Source: a phage. From it: a stretch of DNA of 64,000 bases. Both the position numbers and the translations under genes were made by a program. Positions 3 through 6,080 of the stretch are shown piece after piece; the first letter of the stretch is position 1, and each line of letters opens with the position of its first letter. The stretch lies in the sequence record PZ445454.1; one strand, 5' to 3'. Below the pieces are notes generated by a model. The model was not told the origin of the DNA. It saw only the letters and a list, made by a program, of their open reading frames with translations, and made no database searches.

Positions 3-371
3 AAGTGGCTAGAGGAAGCTTTTAAAAATAATATTGGTGCAATTGTAGTTGGTATTTTTAGTGTTATTGGGATGTATACCACCATGCAAGTCTCGGATGG
101 TAAGCAAGAAGTGTCTATCACAACAAAGTTACAGCAGTTAGATAATTATTCCAAAAGTAATTATTCAGCTATTCGTGATTTACAGTCTGATATGAGGCTG
201 CTTCAGCTAGGGATGGAGAACCAGAAAGTCCAGTTAGAGAATGTTAAGGGTGAGAACGCAAAACTTACTAAGACTCTTGATAAATTCTCTGATAGTGTGA
301 ACAATCTGGCTCAATCAGTATCAGCCCTCCAAGCTATTACTGAAAAGAACACAAAGAATACTGAAAAGTAA
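3..371 (+). CDS. hypothetical protein, probably 5'-truncated by the window edge (in-frame hydrophobic segment upstream of the ATG at 72; coiled-coil-like C-terminus)
   Basis: ORF track 72..371; frame stays open back to position 3 with a hydrophobic stretch IGAIVVGIFSVIGMY; no obvious RBS before 72. Confidence 0.4.
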   Translation, partial: KWLEEAFKNNIGAIVVGIFSVIGMYTTMQVSDGKQEVSITTKLQQLDNYSKSNYSAIRDLQSDMRLLQLGMENQKVQLENVKGENAKLTKTLDKFSDSVNNLAQSVSALQAITEKNTKNTEK

Positions 372-376
372 AGTTT

Positions 377-406
377 AAGGCTCCTTTTTACGGGAGCCTT
401 TTTTGT
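377..406. terminator. hairpin plus T-run between convergent genes (candidate bidirectional intrinsic terminator)
   Basis: AAGGCTCC-TTTTTA-CGGGAGCCTT followed by TTTTTT, located between the + ORF ending 371 and the - ORF ending 408. Confidence 0.55.
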
Positions 407-2640: not shown

Positions 2641-3000
2641 TTATGGGAACAAGCACTTAATGTCATCGTTTTTGAAAACAAAACTTGTGTAGTTATGACC
2701 ATCAACATCCAGCCAAACAGCCTGAACATCCACACCATCAAGATTTTGGTAAAGCTCTTTGATGAAGTGGTCTTTTACAATCTGACTGCTAGTTGTTTCC
2801 AACTTAATGTTCGAGATTGCTGAACCTACAGCCATATAGCCCATGACACGTTTCTTCTCAGTATGCTTAATCTTACCATCTTTGTAAGCCATAATGAGAT
2901 TGGAAAGAATCTTTACACCATAATACTTTTCAAGGTGAGTAGGTACACCATAAAAGCCTAATGCGAAGTTTTCAGAGTGGATAATGTTTTCACGTTTCAT
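2641..3000 (-). CDS. hypothetical protein
   Basis: 119 aa ORF. Confidence 0.5.
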   Translation of the reverse strand: MKRENIIHSENFALGFYGVPTHLEKYYGVKILSNLIMAYKDGKIKHTEKKRVMGYMAVGSAISNIKLETTSSQIVKDHFIKELYQNLDGVDVQAVWLDVDGHNYTSFVFKNDDIKCLFP

Positions 3001-3001
3001 A

Positions 3002-3331
3002 TTAATCTGCCAACCTTAAATTGAAATTAACACCAAATTTTTCACATACTTCCAACATATACTCAAGGGAGACGTTACCAGTGAGATGGATTATGTTGGA
3101 TACACGAGCCTGAGAGATACCACAAATTTTAGCAACTTGCTCTTGAGAAAGACCTCTTGATTTAATCTCTCTCTTAAAACGATGTGCAACAAAGTCTCTC
3201 ATTTCGTCTACATCCATTGGACAAATATAACTCTCCATTTCAGCCTCTCTATCAGCCTCCCAATCATCTTGTGGGGCATAAGGGTCAAAAACCTCATTCA
3301 TCTTTCTTCTTCCGTTTGCGTGAAGTATCAA
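3002..3331 (-). CDS. helix-turn-helix DNA-binding protein (XRE-like HTH at C-terminus)
   Basis: 109 aa; LSQEQVAKICGISQARVSNI resembles XRE/Cro-type HTH. Confidence 0.5.
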   Translation of the reverse strand: MILHANGRRKMNEVFDPYAPQDDWEADREAEMESYICPMDVDEMRDFVAHRFKREIKSRGLSQEQVAKICGISQARVSNIIHLTGNVSLEYMLEVCEKFGVNFNLRLAD

Positions 3332-3506
3332 TCAATGAATCTATATTTGTAGCCCTAACCTTTTCACGTTCATCATTAAGATAATCATCAAGAGCCTTTT
3401 CAATCTGTGAATCATCTTGACAAATGACTGTAAAGACTGTAAAGCCGTCTGTATCATCAATTATCTTACCATAACCGCTTCTGGGATGTAACTTTTTAAG
3501 AGCCAT
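3294..3506 (-). CDS. hypothetical protein
   Basis: 70 aa ORF, overlaps downstream gene start; lysine-rich C-terminus. Confidence 0.35.
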   Translation of the reverse strand: MALKKLHPRSGYGKIIDDTDGFTVFTVICQDDSQIEKALDDYLNDEREKVRATNIDSLIDTSRKRKKKDE

Positions 3507-3507
3507 A

Positions 3508-3891
3508 TCAAATACCTGTGCAGCTTCTGTTTTCTAAGAAATACTCAACACCATACATAGCTTTTTGCATCAAATCTTCTTTAAACTGGATACGATGATT
3601 GAGCATAACCTGTACATCAATATCATCATGGTGTTTCTCTTTAATATTTGCAGATTGCAGGAAATACTCTGCAAGAACGCGATACTGGTAGTCAGTCACC
3701 TTATCAGTCATCTCTGTCAAAGACTCTTCAGAGATTGGTTTAAGTAACTCACCTTTAGATAGCGCAACACCTTTAACAATCTGGCAAGTGTCTTCTGGAA
3801 CACCTGATAAGTCCACATTTGGAAGTTCTGTTGCATTAACTGGTAAATTCATTGCCATAACCATTGCAGCAGCTAATAAAACCTTTTTCAT
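3508..3891 (-). CDS. secreted/periplasmic hypothetical protein
   Basis: 127 aa; N-terminal signal-peptide-like MKKVLLAAAMVMAMNLPVNA. Confidence 0.55.
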   Translation of the reverse strand: MKKVLLAAAMVMAMNLPVNATELPNVDLSGVPEDTCQIVKGVALSKGELLKPISEESLTEMTDKVTDYQYRVLAEYFLQSANIKEKHHDDIDVQVMLNHRIQFKEDLMQKAMYGVEYFLENRSCTGI

Positions 3892-4030
3892 AATGACCTC
3901 AAAGTTATATTAAATTTTGTATTACATTGAGTATAAAAATAAGCTATAACACCTGACTTGTCAACAGATTTTATAGCTTATTTGGCAGATTTTTTATAAG
4001 GCTACTGCCATCCTTCCATACCTTACCTTA

Positions 4031-4084
4031 CCACACCTAACCATACCTAACCATACCTAACCATACCTAACCATACCTAACCAA
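4031..4084. repeat. tandem decamer repeat (CCATACCTAA, about 5 copies)
   Basis: cacacctaa ccatacctaa x4 read directly; lies in a 590 bp ORF-free intergenic region (3892-4481). Confidence 0.8.
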
Positions 4085-4481
4085 ACTACACCATACAATA
4101 CCTTGTTAAAAGACCCTCTTAAAAGACCTTTTAAAAAGGTAAGTCTCATTTTAATGTAGTTGAGACTAACTACCCATACCAAACAGCACCGCACTATGCC
4201 TTACCCCACCTCACCGAGCCTCGCCCCACATCACTTAAAAACCCTTTTCAAAGACTCTTAAGTGATGCTGGTGAGTACCCGTTGGTTTATGCTGCTCAGT
4301 ATACTCACCAAATTTTCTATGTCAACAACTTTTATATAAAAGTCCTGATAGCTATATGTGTTACAAAACAGAAGATTGTGAACAAGACACCCATTGCAAA
4401 GGATGTGTTCAAAAGTTTACTTGTTATGTAAGACAACACAAAGATAACTAATGCAAATAGTATGATTATGCTTAGCATAGT

Positions 4482-5585
4482 TTACTCATAATCCCTAATA
4501 ACTAGTCCGACAGGGAACTGTAAAGAACCCTTACGAGTCATCTTCTGGAACTGAACCGTTAAAGGCTTCCCGATAAACTCATCAGGATGCTCAGCAAGAT
4601 ACTGTTTCTTCTCATGAGTAGTCTTCCATGAGACATCTACAAAGACGTTAGGAAGAGTCTCTACAACGAACTTACCATGACCACGTTTATCGGTCTTTAC
4701 ACCAGTCACTTTAAACTCTTCAGTGTGCATCTTCTTGTGCTTAATCAAGAAGTATGAACGGTGACCACACTCATAGAAGGAGTCTTCAGAGATTGAACGG
4801 TACATTGCACCTTCAAACTTGGCTTCAACCCACTTATCATGAGCTTCATCAAACTCTTCCCAAGAATTTACACGACGAGATTTAACAGGGACAACTTTAC
4901 AGCCATCTCTAAAGTCATTCAATGGTGAAGTCTCAATAATATCTCTACGCTCAGGCCACGTTTTAGTACTGTCACAGATATCATACCAGTAGAACTTAAG
5001 TAAGTGTCTGTCAGGATTGTCTTCATTTTTAATCATGGAGACAATATCTTCTAAGTCCCACCCATGAGCATAAATCTCTCCATCAAATTCATCAACATCT
5101 TTGTGGAGCCTTAACATTGCCATAATGTCAGGTATTAGTTCAGTAGGGATTTTGTAAACAGTATTCTCACGAGAATATGCTGTAAATACACTGCCAATAC
5201 TTAAGTGTCTTGAAATTCTACAACGTACACCATCAAGTTTTGGTTGAGCATCAGCAGGGAACTTCAGATACTTTGCATGACTAACCTTTGCAGCGTCATG
5301 AGCAAGCTGTACACCTACCTTTTCAGTATTCTGTGCAGACTCTTTTGTGTAAGCATAACCTTTACGGTCAACTTGCTTTTTATACTTAGCAGCAACTTCA
5401 AAGAGAGCTTGCTGTTCAGCGTTACGCTCATTCTTTTTACCGATGTTTTTCGGTTCTGCTGTATACTCTTCAAACATCATCTTGCCATTTTCTTTACCGT
5501 AGGTTGTAATAACTTTGTCACCTACAGCAACGCATGACCAGACGTTAAAAGAGCCATCTTTATTTTGTTTGTACAGAATTGTCAT
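4482..5585 (-). CDS. ATP-dependent DNA ligase
   Basis: Nucleotidyltransferase motif I KLDGVRC and DGEIY motif; ORF track starts at 5621 but the internal Met at 5585 has a better RBS (AGAGGT). Confidence 0.65.
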   Translation of the reverse strand: MTILYKQNKDGSFNVWSCVAVGDKVITTYGKENGKMMFEEYTAEPKNIGKKNERNAEQQALFEVAAKYKKQVDRKGYAYTKESAQNTEKVGVQLAHDAAKVSHAKYLKFPADAQPKLDGVRCRISRHLSIGSVFTAYSRENTVYKIPTELIPDIMAMLRLHKDVDEFDGEIYAHGWDLEDIVSMIKNEDNPDRHLLKFYWYDICDSTKTWPERRDIIETSPLNDFRDGCKVVPVKSRRVNSWEEFDEAHDKWVEAKFEGAMYRSISEDSFYECGHRSYFLIKHKKMHTEEFKVTGVKTDKRGHGKFVVETLPNVFVDVSWKTTHEKKQYLAEHPDEFIGKPLTVQFQKMTRKGSLQFPVGLVIRDYE

Positions 5586-5778
5586 TTTTAACCTCTGAGT
5601 GATACCAAGTGTAACAAGCATTACATGCGTAAAGCTCTAAGTCATTTTTATCTGGTTTATGGAAACAGTTTGACCCACAACGACACCGGAATAGTTTACC
5701 ATCAACACGAAGAATGAATGTTTCAAGCTCACCATCTTCTGTAAGAACTGCGTTCTTAAGTTTATCTTCTACAGTCAT
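5560..5778 (-). CDS. small zinc-finger protein
   Basis: 72 aa; CRCGSNC...CNAC cysteine pairs. Confidence 0.45.
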   Translation of the reverse strand: MTVEDKLKNAVLTEDGELETFILRVDGKLFRCRCGSNCFHKPDKNDLELYACNACYTWYHSEVKNDNSVQTK

Positions 5779-6080
5779 TTTCTCTTACCACCAATCTCTA
5801 CGTCAATCACTTGAACATCACCAGCAACATCAAACTTATGAATGATGCTTTCCACAGTGTAAGTCCAACCCTCGATTCGAACCAACTCACCTTCTCGTGG
5901 GACGATTGGGTTACGTTGAGCTACGGTTGTAGTGGAGTGAACAACATCATAACAGTAGATATAGTTTACTAGGACTTCCATCTTGAAAACCTCACTCAAT
6001 AACAGTAGTGTGTGATTGACCATTTTTGCCATAGCTATAAGATGTTGTTGTTTGAGAGTTTGGGCATCTGACAACAACAA
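5775..6080 (-). CDS. hypothetical protein
   Basis: 101 aa ORF (non-ATG start in track); overlaps the next ORF. Confidence 0.35.
   Translation of the reverse strand: MLLSDAQTLKQQHLIAMAKMVNHTLLLLSEVFKMEVLVNYIYCYDVVHSTTTVAQRNPIVPREGELVRIEGWTYTVESIIHKFDVAGDVQVIDVEIGGKRK

What the first reader, a model, noticed from the sequence alone, without database searches (positions are those of the whole stretch)
3892..4481. Long ORF-free spacer with a tandem decamer repeat
A 590 bp gap between two minus-strand genes contains about five tandem copies of CCATACCTAA and other C/A-rich iterations. Length and repeat content suggest a regulatory region (promoter with binding array) or a small-RNA locus rather than simple spacing.
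Basis: seen in the sequence. Interest (0 to 1): 0.4.

Follow-up and report, generated by a model that had tools for sequence, protein, structure and literature searches.

The report
Orphan VIPR guide-RNA genes in phage
The "spacer" in this Felix O1-like phage holds two genes for VIPR guide RNAs, whose GGY-NN pentamer repeats normally steer the phage protein Vipr to silence a parasitic satellite of E. coli. This phage has lost the Vipr gene, and the conspicuous decamer repeat is a slippage expansion that breaks one of the two guides.

Summary
The repeat is real: TRF finds period 10 at 4020-4096. The underlying unit is a pentamer, GGYNN on the minus strand. There are two such arrays, 4176-4225 and 4018-4102, and no others in the 64 kb. 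The gap is not ORF-free, because 4332-4478 encodes a conserved 48-aa membrane protein.

The window is a Felixounavirus. In about half of its relatives the same spacer also holds a 195-aa and a 146-aa gene between such arrays. The 195-aa protein matches PDB 36pp "SUSP1 Vipr protein" (E=1.4e-80). Two 2026 bioRxiv preprints describe this system as VIPR: Vipr filaments bind GGY and use the NN dinucleotides to read DNA, skipping one base per unit.

Promoter, leader hairpins and pseudoknot tails here are near-identical to those of the SUSP1 vrRNA genes. Guide A matches an E. coli satellite's recombinase gene (17/20, in codon frame). The ancestral form of guide B matches a satellite promoter (20/22). 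The window's decamer-expanded guide B matches nothing (0.65 or less).

No vipr or vap gene lies in the window, and a complete vipr-less relative has none either. Verdict: a known kind of element, here as an orphan and partly broken guide array.

The parts
4332..4478 (-). 48-aa small membrane-protein gene. It lies inside the reported 'gap' but is not part of the RNA element. Some relatives have a different small ORF here.
   Evidence: ORF list; phrog_22006 E=1.3e-30; conserved at protein level in tootiki and UAB_Phi87.
4298..4325 (-). Promoter P_A, TTGACA-16-TATACT, the inferred promoter of the vrRNA array.
   Evidence: 11/12 consensus match. Present in all 27 relatives and in SUSP1 upstream of vrRNA1.
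4229..4267 (-). Leader hairpin A, CAUCACUUAAGAGUCUUU...AAGGGUUUUUAAGUGAUG, immediately 5' of guide A.
   Evidence: MFE -15.5 kcal/mol, z=-4.9, 0 of 200 shuffles as good. Conserved in relatives and SUSP1.
4176..4225 (-). vrRNA guide A: 10 GGYNN units, 8 with perfect GGY. NN code: GA TC GA GG AA AT GC GC TT AT.
   Evidence: Same allele in vipr+ tootiki and vipr- humlepung. 17/20 NN match, in codon frame, in the satellite serine-recombinase gene at L164 15186-15214.
4138..4175 (-). 3' tail A, GGGUAGUUAGUCUCAACUACAUUAAAAUGAGACUUACC. It can form an H-type pseudoknot (GUAG/CUAC plus AGUCUCA/UGAGACU).
   Evidence: One junction base (A for G, before CUAC) from the commonest relative tail, and one further base (U for C after UGAGAC) from the SUSP1 vrRNA2 tail. 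Hairpin in MFE, z=-2.1. The preprint reports a pseudoknotted tail for this clade.
4101..4139 (-). Leader hairpin B, CCUUUUUAAAAGGUCUUUUAAGAGGGUCUUUUAACAAGG. This is the repeat within which the vipr-vap segment appears to have been deleted.
   Evidence: TRF period 12-13; fold. Window 343-380 of the spacer aligns to both leader copies of tootiki, at 345 and 1624.
4018..4102 (-). vrRNA guide B: 17 GGYNN units. It contains the decamer run (TTAGGTATGG)n at 4035-4080, which is three extra decamers (six units) relative to the allele in tootiki, L018 and L027.
   Evidence: Ancestral 11-unit allele matches 20/22 NN over the -10/start of a satellite promoter (L165 5615-5646, L170 5202-5233). The expanded allele's best match is 0.65 or less.
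3965..4017 (-). 3' tail B, GGAAGGAUGGCAGUAGCCUUAUAAAAAAUCUGCCAAAUAAGCUAUAAAAUCUG. Its H-type pseudoknot would pair UGGCAG/CUGCCA and UAGCcUUAU/AUAAGCUA.
   Evidence: Identical to the SUSP1 vrRNA4 tail. Stem 1 covaries between tail types: GGCAG/CUGCC against GGUAG/CUACC. Stem 1 appears in the MFE fold.
3936..3964 (-). Promoter P_B, TTGACA-17-TATTTT, for the downstream 127-aa gene (3508-3891) and its operon. It borders the element.
   Evidence: 10/12 consensus match; invariant in relatives.

Best explanation
The non-coding stretch is a VIPR (Viral Interference Programmable Repeat) guide-RNA locus of the type II / SUSP1 clade that has lost its protein genes. Read on the minus strand it runs: promoter P_A, leader hairpin, guide A (10 GGYNN units), pseudoknot tail, leader hairpin, guide B (17 units), pseudoknot tail, then the promoter of the next operon.

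In complete systems each GGY is gripped by one Vipr protomer. The NN dinucleotides then base-pair with double-stranded DNA, skipping every third base, and silence transcription. This mechanism is shown in the preprints for SUSP1.

Here guide A is addressed to the serine-recombinase gene of an E. coli chromosomal satellite that carries Felix-like tape-measure and baseplate genes. Guide B's ancestor was addressed to that satellite's first promoter.

The vipr-vap segment, plus one vrRNA, was most likely removed by recombination between two copies of the roughly 35-bp leader repeat (inferred). The decamer repeat is a later replication-slippage expansion that adds six units to guide B. It destroys the guide's register with its target and pushes it past the 9-16 units seen in working vrRNAs (inferred).

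With no Vipr encoded, the two RNAs are probably still transcribed but inert in single infections. My estimates for the sub-claims: identity as vrRNA genes about 0.93; no vipr anywhere in this phage about 0.85; inert relic about 0.6.
For: (1) GGY at 5-nt period is conserved and NN is near-random, while the flanks are about 100% identical in 7 relatives. The arrays are unique in the window.

(2) In 16 of 27 related loci the same spacer holds a 195-aa and a 146-aa gene between such arrays.

(3) The 195-aa protein has homologs next to heterogeneous GGTNN arrays in 41 unrelated IMG/VR loci that were found by DNA pattern alone.

(4) A profile of this family hits PDB 36pp_D 'SUSP1 Vipr protein' at E=1.4e-80. 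SUSP1's own copy is 97.9% identical.

(5) The preprints 10.64898/2026.04.26.720920 and .720927 define vrRNAs as 9-16 YNNGG repeats plus a conserved pseudoknotted tail.

(6) The SUSP1 locus lies at the orthologous site and has the same P_A, leaders and tails.

[quoted passage not shown] That is 85/385 guide-by-satellite tests, against 17/1155 for shuffled guides. Window guide A scores 17/20 in frame. Ancestral guide B scores 20/22. Expanded guide B scores 0.65 or less.

(8) No Vipr or Vap homolog is found in the window at E<=10, nor Vipr in the complete genome of vipr-less humlepung.

(9) The window spacer aligns to tootiki as two blocks that overlap in the leader repeat.
Against: No expression data exist for this phage, so mature RNA ends are only inferred from SUSP1.

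About 22 kb of the genome lies outside the window. By synteny with humlepung that part is the structural module.

Guide A reaches only 85% NN in one of seven sampled satellites and 70-75% in the rest. No perfect target was found, and exact-pattern scans of IMG/VR found none.

Arrays in vipr-less phages are as intact as those in vipr+ phages: GGY perfect in 0.816 against 0.802 of units. They are also as often target-matched, 6/11 against 24/43. That fits recent loss, but it fits continued use in trans equally well.

Unit slippage is also seen in vipr+ phages, so the expansion alone does not prove relaxed selection.
Confidence: 0.82

Rival explanations
1. The orphan guides are kept because they work in trans. 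In mixed infections they load onto Vipr made by a co-infecting vipr+ relative, whose Vipr is 97% or more identical across the group. Alternatively they act as decoys that soak up a competitor's Vipr, an RNA anti-VIPR analogous to anti-CRISPR repeat mimics.
For: About half of Ounavirinae records lack vipr yet keep P_A, leaders, tails and arrays. GGY integrity and target-match rate are equal in vipr- and vipr+ phages. vipr- phages carry many different guide alleles. The preprint notes that some satellites carry their own vrRNAs.
Against: There is no direct evidence for trans loading. One-module phages such as Felix O1 show eroded arrays, 5-6 of 9 GGY perfect with a best target match of 0.72 for the one scored. 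The window's guide B is expanded beyond the working range. vipr is rarer in Salmonella phages (17 of about 77) than in Escherichia phages (77 of about 119), and the satellite was found in E. coli. That pattern fits simple loss where the target is absent.
Confidence: 0.2
2. This is a DNA-level regulatory array, the first reader's main idea: phased repeats upstream of P_B that bind a transcription factor (for example the HTH protein at 3002-3331) or bend DNA to tune the promoter.
For: The array ends about 55 bp upstream of the P_B -35 hexamer. An HTH regulator gene lies in the downstream operon.
Against: The repeat sequence and unit number differ between phages whose promoters are identical, and only GGY is kept. 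The same kind of array occurs in unrelated phages next to Vipr genes, not next to a shared promoter. A 5-bp period puts successive sites on opposite faces of the duplex.
Confidence: 0.03
3. The arrays are a replication origin, R-loop or recombination hot spot: a strongly G-rich non-template strand behind a strong promoter, near the replication genes, flanking a movable cassette.
For: GC skew reaches -0.86. The arrays flank the optional two-gene cassette. The leader repeat is the apparent deletion junction.
Against: The strand bias and periodicity are fully explained by the GGY code. The cassette is the effector gene pair itself. No origin features were found. Recombination at the leaders is a side effect of repeated sequence.
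Confidence: 0.03
4. The repeat is a functionless microsatellite produced by slippage in an otherwise ordinary intergenic region.
For: The perfect decamer run is indeed a slippage product specific to this phage.
Against: The surrounding pentamer arrays keep GGY while NN varies freely, which neutral drift would not do. Their NN codes match satellite DNA far above shuffled controls.
Confidence: 0.02

Closest known systems
Type II VIPR system of Escherichia phage SUSP1 (vipr, vap1, four vrRNAs; bioRxiv 10.64898/2026.04.26.720920 and .720927; PDB 36pp)
   Same: It sits at the same genomic site, between the DNA ligase gene and the 127-aa gene. It has the same promoter, leader hairpins and tail sequences, the same GGY/NN pentamer code, and the same class of target, an E. 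coli satellite with Felix-like tape-measure and baseplate genes.
   Different: The window has no vipr and no vap. It has two vrRNA genes instead of four. One guide has 17 units, outside the reported 9-16, because of a decamer expansion.
Complete VIPR loci of Felixounavirus relatives (tootiki_14/15, wV8 gp096/gp095 with annotated 'DR_4' and 'repeat_region' features)
   Same: Guide A is identical to tootiki's first guide. Guide B is tootiki's last guide plus three decamers. The flanks are about 94% identical over 3 kb.
   Different: About 1.25 kb (one vrRNA, vipr, vap and a terminator hairpin) is missing from the window. The junction lies in the leader repeat.
Orphan CRISPR arrays and phage-borne mini-arrays (from my own knowledge, not tested here)
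   Same: These are guide-RNA genes without a cognate effector gene in the same genome. They are potentially usable only with an effector supplied from elsewhere.
   Different: There is no repeat-spacer structure and no Cas genes. The information lies in dinucleotides interleaved with GGY, not in contiguous spacers. Rfam gives no match.
Class 1 CRISPR crRNA-Cas7 backbone filaments
   Same: It works alike. A RAMP protein polymerises along the guide, one protomer per short repeat unit, and flips out bases at fixed intervals. This is what the preprints state.
   Different: The period is 5 nt rather than 6. Three of five bases are sequestered. The target is read with a one-base skip and a triplex intermediate. 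None of this was tested here.

Membership tests
VIPR vrRNA (type II, SUSP1 clade) | A tract of 9-16 tandem YNNGG/GGYNN units, with GGY conserved and NN hypervariable among relatives. | tested here: met
   Guide A has 10 units (8 perfect GGY). Guide B has 17 units (15 perfect), one over the range because of the expansion; its ancestral allele has 11-12. Position frequencies are G .86, G .93, T .88, with NN near background. The alignment shows only GGY conserved.
VIPR vrRNA (type II, SUSP1 clade) | An invariable 3' tail of about 40 nt, with a conserved structure that includes a pseudoknot. | tested here: met
   Tail B is identical to the SUSP1 vrRNA4 tail. Tail A differs from the SUSP1 vrRNA2 tail at two positions (the unpaired junction base before CUAC, and U for C after UGAGAC) and from the commonest relative tail at the junction base only. 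Both can form H-type pseudoknots when read directly. Stem 1 shows a compensatory C-G to U-A change between tail types. The MFE folds recover one stem of each. Covariation depth is low because the tails are almost invariant.
VIPR system | A vipr gene (minimal RAMP, about 190 aa) next to the arrays. | tested here: not met
   No hit in the six-frame ORFs of the window at E<=10, while the tootiki control scores 1.5e-52. The gene is present at the orthologous site in 16 of 27 related loci and in 118 phage records.
VIPR system | An accessory vap gene (vap1, 146 aa in this clade). | tested here: not met
   phmmer of the 146-aa protein against window ORFs gives no hit at E<=10.
VIPR vrRNA | The NN code matches a natural target at 80% or better under the 1-nt-skip rule, typically with the skipped base at codon wobble positions. 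| tested here: inconclusive
   Guide A scores 17/20 (85%) in frame in a satellite recombinase gene, but in only 1 of 7 satellites. The orthologous site scores 15/20 in three others. The expanded guide B fails at 0.65 or less. Its ancestral allele passes at 20/22. Over the whole set the test is clearly positive: 85/385 against 17/1155 shuffled.
VIPR vrRNA | No self-targeting of the source genome. | tested here: met
   Neither window guide reaches 80% NN anywhere in the 64-kb window.
VIPR vrRNA | Expressed as a small RNA of about 100 nt that co-purifies with Vipr. | not testable with these tools
   This is shown only for SUSP1 and P. fulva in the preprint. For the window it is inferred from identical promoter, leader and tail sequences.
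CRISPR array | Direct repeats of about 24-40 bp separated by unique spacers of similar length. | tested here: not met
   The repeat finders show only 5/10-bp and 12-13-bp periods. There is no Rfam match.
Known Rfam RNA families | A covariance-model match at or near the gathering score. | tested here: not met
   The best hits have E of 3.6 or worse and lie far below gathering scores.

The most novel reading that the evidence does not exclude
Orphan vrRNA arrays are not debris but a strategy. Roughly half of Felix O1-like phages have shed vipr-vap yet keep promoter-driven, GGY-intact, target-matched guides. These either borrow Vipr from co-infecting relatives, gaining anti-satellite protection without paying for the effector, or act as RNA decoys that disarm a rival phage's Vipr. 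That would make guide-only loci a distinct, selectable state of an RNA-guided system in viruses.
Probability: 0.2. Interest if true: 0.7.

Novelty: new member of a known kind. Interest (0 to 1): 0.5.

Why it matters
VIPR was described only in 2026, as an RNA-guided DNA-recognition system older than CRISPR. This window shows what such a locus looks like after the effector gene is lost. The guides, promoter and tails persist, one guide still addresses the satellite's recombinase gene, and the other has been wrecked by a 30-bp slippage event.

Three practical points follow. Guide arrays can be found from DNA alone, using GGYNN periodicity together with hypervariable NN. Vipr-less arrays are common in a well-sampled and therapeutically used phage genus, about half of the records. 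The E. coli satellite targeted by these phages sits in 474 of 5,426 complete E. coli genomes, which matters for host range and phage-cocktail design.

Finally, this locus gives a natural experiment on how unit insertions affect the non-contiguous code.

Tried and rejected
Rfam at permissive E-values found nothing relevant. The intrinsic-terminator scan found none.

Before the protein link emerged I considered several readings. These were: phased DNA bending or an UP element; a Rho rut site on the plus strand; two-tetrad G-quadruplexes; R-loop priming of replication; boxA-like antitermination; Chi-like or RecA-preferred GT-rich recombination sites; and TRAP-like ring binding. All were dropped once the arrays proved to be tied to Vipr homologs in 41 unrelated loci and to PDB 36pp.

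Exact 1-nt-skip patterns for guide A and for two ancestral forms of guide B found nothing in IMG/VR.

The same pattern for guide A found 9 metagenome and 4 genome hits. These encode a conserved (C)DSDGKIAAFI-type peptide, which I take to be arginine decarboxylase-like, in non-host bacteria, or lie in no open frame. I judged them coincidental.

Megablast of 25 kb of the window, and blastn of the vrRNA locus, against E. coli genomes found nothing. The satellite was reached only through the baseplate gene of a relative.

The AlphaFold model of Vipr (pLDDT 93.9) was not taken to a fold search, because the sequence match to a solved structure made that unnecessary.

The Felix O1, wV8 and UAB_Phi87 genome papers do not discuss this spacer.

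Full report
**1. What is in the sequence**

The window is a Felix O1-like myovirus (Felixounavirus). 259 phage records match 3000-6000 at 80-99% identity. The reported gap lies between the DNA ligase gene (4482-5621, minus) and a 127-aa gene (3508-3891, minus).

TRF confirms a period-10 array at 4020-4096, with 7.7 copies. The basic period is 5: ACCWWACCWWACC scores 16 hits against 0.97 expected. On the minus strand, which is the strand of all neighbouring genes, the unit is GGYNN.

A scan for GGY at 5-nt spacing finds exactly two arrays in the 64 kb, at 4176-4225 and 4018-4102, both on the minus strand. Shuffles gave none.

The gap is not ORF-free. 4332-4478 encodes a 48-aa membrane protein of phrog_22006.

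**2. Anatomy from comparison**

I collected the same spacer from 27 relatives: annotated records plus 23 IMG/VR loci found through the 127-aa protein. Its length ranges from 273 to 2132 bp.

Reading the minus strand, the window shows this order (coordinates):
- promoter P_A (TTGACA-16-TATACT)
- a strong leader hairpin
- array A
- a tail
- a second leader hairpin
- array B
- a second tail
- promoter P_B of the next operon

In seven relatives with this two-array layout the promoters, leaders and tails are virtually identical. The arrays differ almost completely, except that GGY recurs every five bases. Over 735 units the frequencies are G .86, G .93, T .88, with NN near background. The first three values are inflated by how I selected the arrays; the NN values are not.

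The window's perfect decamers are specific to this phage. tootiki, L018 and L027 carry the same array B with 11 units, and L026 has 12. The window has 17, so the difference is three extra TTAGGTATGG copies.

**3. The link to a protein**

In 16 of the 27 loci the spacer also contains a 195-aa and a 146-aa gene lying between arrays. wV8 annotates the flanking repeats as 'DR_4'. Neither gene has a Pfam domain or a named PHROG function.

A scan of IMG/VR for (GGTNN)7GGT returned at least 120 loci. 67 of them carry heterogeneous arrays, often many in tandem. These arrays lie on the coding strand, next to ORFs of about 165-210 aa.

Those ORFs are homologs of the 195-aa protein. phmmer finds 40, and a profile finds 43 in 41 loci. 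So the protein and the array form a conserved pair across unrelated viruses.

The family has at least 520 members in the large protein database, all unnamed. Its alignment shows a C-terminal GxGDWRPRFGRF loop. The profile hits one solved structure, 36pp chain D, 'SUSP1 Vipr protein', at E=1.4e-80. The SUSP1 genomic copy is 97.9% identical to tootiki's.

**4. What is already known**

[quoted passage not shown] Their main claims are:
- Vipr is a minimal RAMP protein.
- It polymerises on vrRNAs made of 9-16 YNNGG repeats followed by a conserved tail, pseudoknotted in the SUSP1 clade.
- It sequesters each GGY.
- It uses the NN dinucleotides to pair with double-stranded DNA, skipping every third base, and this represses transcription.
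- In the SUSP1 clade, 18 of 20 guides with identifiable targets aim at an E. coli satellite.

Neither text contains 'orphan' or 'Felix'.

**5. Membership**

The SUSP1 locus lies at the orthologous site. It has the same P_A and leader, followed by vrRNA1, vipr, vap and three further vrRNAs.

The window's tail B is identical to SUSP1's last tail. Tail A differs from the SUSP1 vrRNA2 tail at two positions, the unpaired junction base before CUAC and one U-for-C change after UGAGAC. Both tails can form H-type pseudoknots. One stem shows a compensatory change between tail types, and single stems appear in MFE folds.

The window contains no Vipr or Vap homolog. The complete genome of humlepung, a vipr-less relative with the same guide A, has no Vipr homolog either and only the same two arrays.

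The window spacer aligns to tootiki as two blocks that overlap in the roughly 35-bp leader repeat. This is the expected scar of a deletion that removed one vrRNA together with vipr and vap.

Across the phage collection, 118 records carry this Vipr at 90% identity or better, against 230-259 records that carry the spacer. By first word of the organism name that is 77 of about 119 for Escherichia and 17 of about 77 for Salmonella.

**6. Targets**

Exact-pattern searches of public collections were uninformative.

The preprint notes that the satellite's baseplate hub protein is 72% identical to SUSP1's. I therefore searched the humlepung baseplate gene against complete E. coli genomes. 474 of 5,426 genomes carry a chromosomal copy at 70-93% identity.

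I fetched seven of these islands. They are about 11 kb and encode a serine recombinase, a tape-measure protein, a baseplate protein and an HNH endonuclease. They are inserted near tonB, in a DUF72 gene, or near wrbA.

Scoring with the 1-nt-skip rule gave:
- 35 of 55 Felix/SUSP1 guides reach 80% NN or better in at least one island.
- That is 85 of 385 guide-by-island tests, against 17 of 1155 for guides with shuffled unit order.
- Window guide A scores 17/20 at L164 15186-15214. It lies in the recombinase gene with the skipped bases at wobble positions, and the orthologous site is its best hit in three other islands at 15/20.
- The ancestral guide B scores 20/22 across the -10 and start region of a TTGACA-N17-TAGTAT promoter upstream of the first satellite ORF, in two islands.
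- The window's expanded guide B keeps the first seven units in register and then falls out. Its best score anywhere is 0.65.

The first four islands, the only ones I checked, carry no Vipr gene and no arrays.

**7. Interpretation and limits**

Shown here:
- the arrays, their periodicity and their uniqueness in the window
- orthology to an experimentally characterised vrRNA locus
- absence of vipr and vap from the window
- the target matches

Inferred:
- transcription from P_A
- the mature RNA ends
- deletion through the leader repeat
- loss of function of guide B

Open: whether orphan guides are relics or are used in trans. Arrays in vipr-less phages are as intact as those in vipr+ phages (0.816 against 0.802 perfect GGY). 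They are also as often target-matched (6/11 against 24/43). This does not separate recent loss from continued use. The eroded single array of Felix O1 itself (6 of 9 GGY perfect, best match 0.72) points to decay in at least some lineages.

**8. Verdict**

It belongs to a kind that is now described, so it is not new in kind.

This instance is a guide-only, partly broken member, a state the preprints do not discuss. I rate it of moderate interest: high as biology, limited as novelty.

Noticed in passing
window 47171-48832: A 1.66-kb stretch with no ORF of 50 aa or more, packed with dozens of short iterations (CTTGTTAA/G, CTGTTAAG, CTATAGAG/CTATAAAG; several TRF arrays of period 10-12). In humlepung the equivalent non-coding DNA spans the ends of the linear record, so this is probably the genome-terminus or terminal-repeat region.
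   Followed up: partly
window 4332-4478; L009, L026, L163 (SUSP1) 1751-1925: The slot between the ligase gene and promoter P_A is itself variable. It holds a 48-aa membrane protein here, a different basic, Cys-containing ORF of about 60 aa in SUSP1, L009 and L026, and nothing in Felix O1.
   Followed up: partly
L164 4.8-16.3 kb; also L165-L170 (E. coli chromosomes): An island of about 11 kb with a serine recombinase, tape-measure and baseplate genes (70-93% nt identity to Felixounavirus), an HNH endonuclease, and a long unannotated stretch of about 1.5-2.5 kb in several of them. It is present in 474 of 5,426 complete E. coli genomes at three or more insertion sites. It is the apparent satellite targeted by these phages.
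   Followed up: partly
L137 2604-12927; L086 3228-4394; L040 2217-3406 (IMG/VR contigs): Some uncultivated viral contigs carry very large GGTNN arrays: up to 72 units in one run, or 12-18 arrays back to back with fixed punctuation such as ...GGCAG or ...GGCTA. This is well beyond the 9-16 units per vrRNA reported. They may be the 'staggered' or other array types mentioned in the preprint.
   Followed up: no
window 4482-5621 and 5560-5778: The ligase region is annotated in several relatives as two overlapping 'DNA ligase' CDSs. Here a 379-aa ORF overlaps a 72-aa ORF by 62 nt. This could be a split gene, a frameshift, or a mis-annotated upstream gene.
   Followed up: no
L148-L160 (metagenome and genome hits to the guide A pattern): The codon-like NNx pattern of guide A picks out a conserved DSDGKIAAFI-type peptide, which I take to be arginine decarboxylase-like, in unrelated bacteria. 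This is a caution that 1-nt-skip searches of very large databases yield protein-motif false positives.
   Followed up: yes
window 58577-63556: A cluster of 25 tRNA genes on the plus strand, as is usual for Felix O1-like phages.
   Followed up: no
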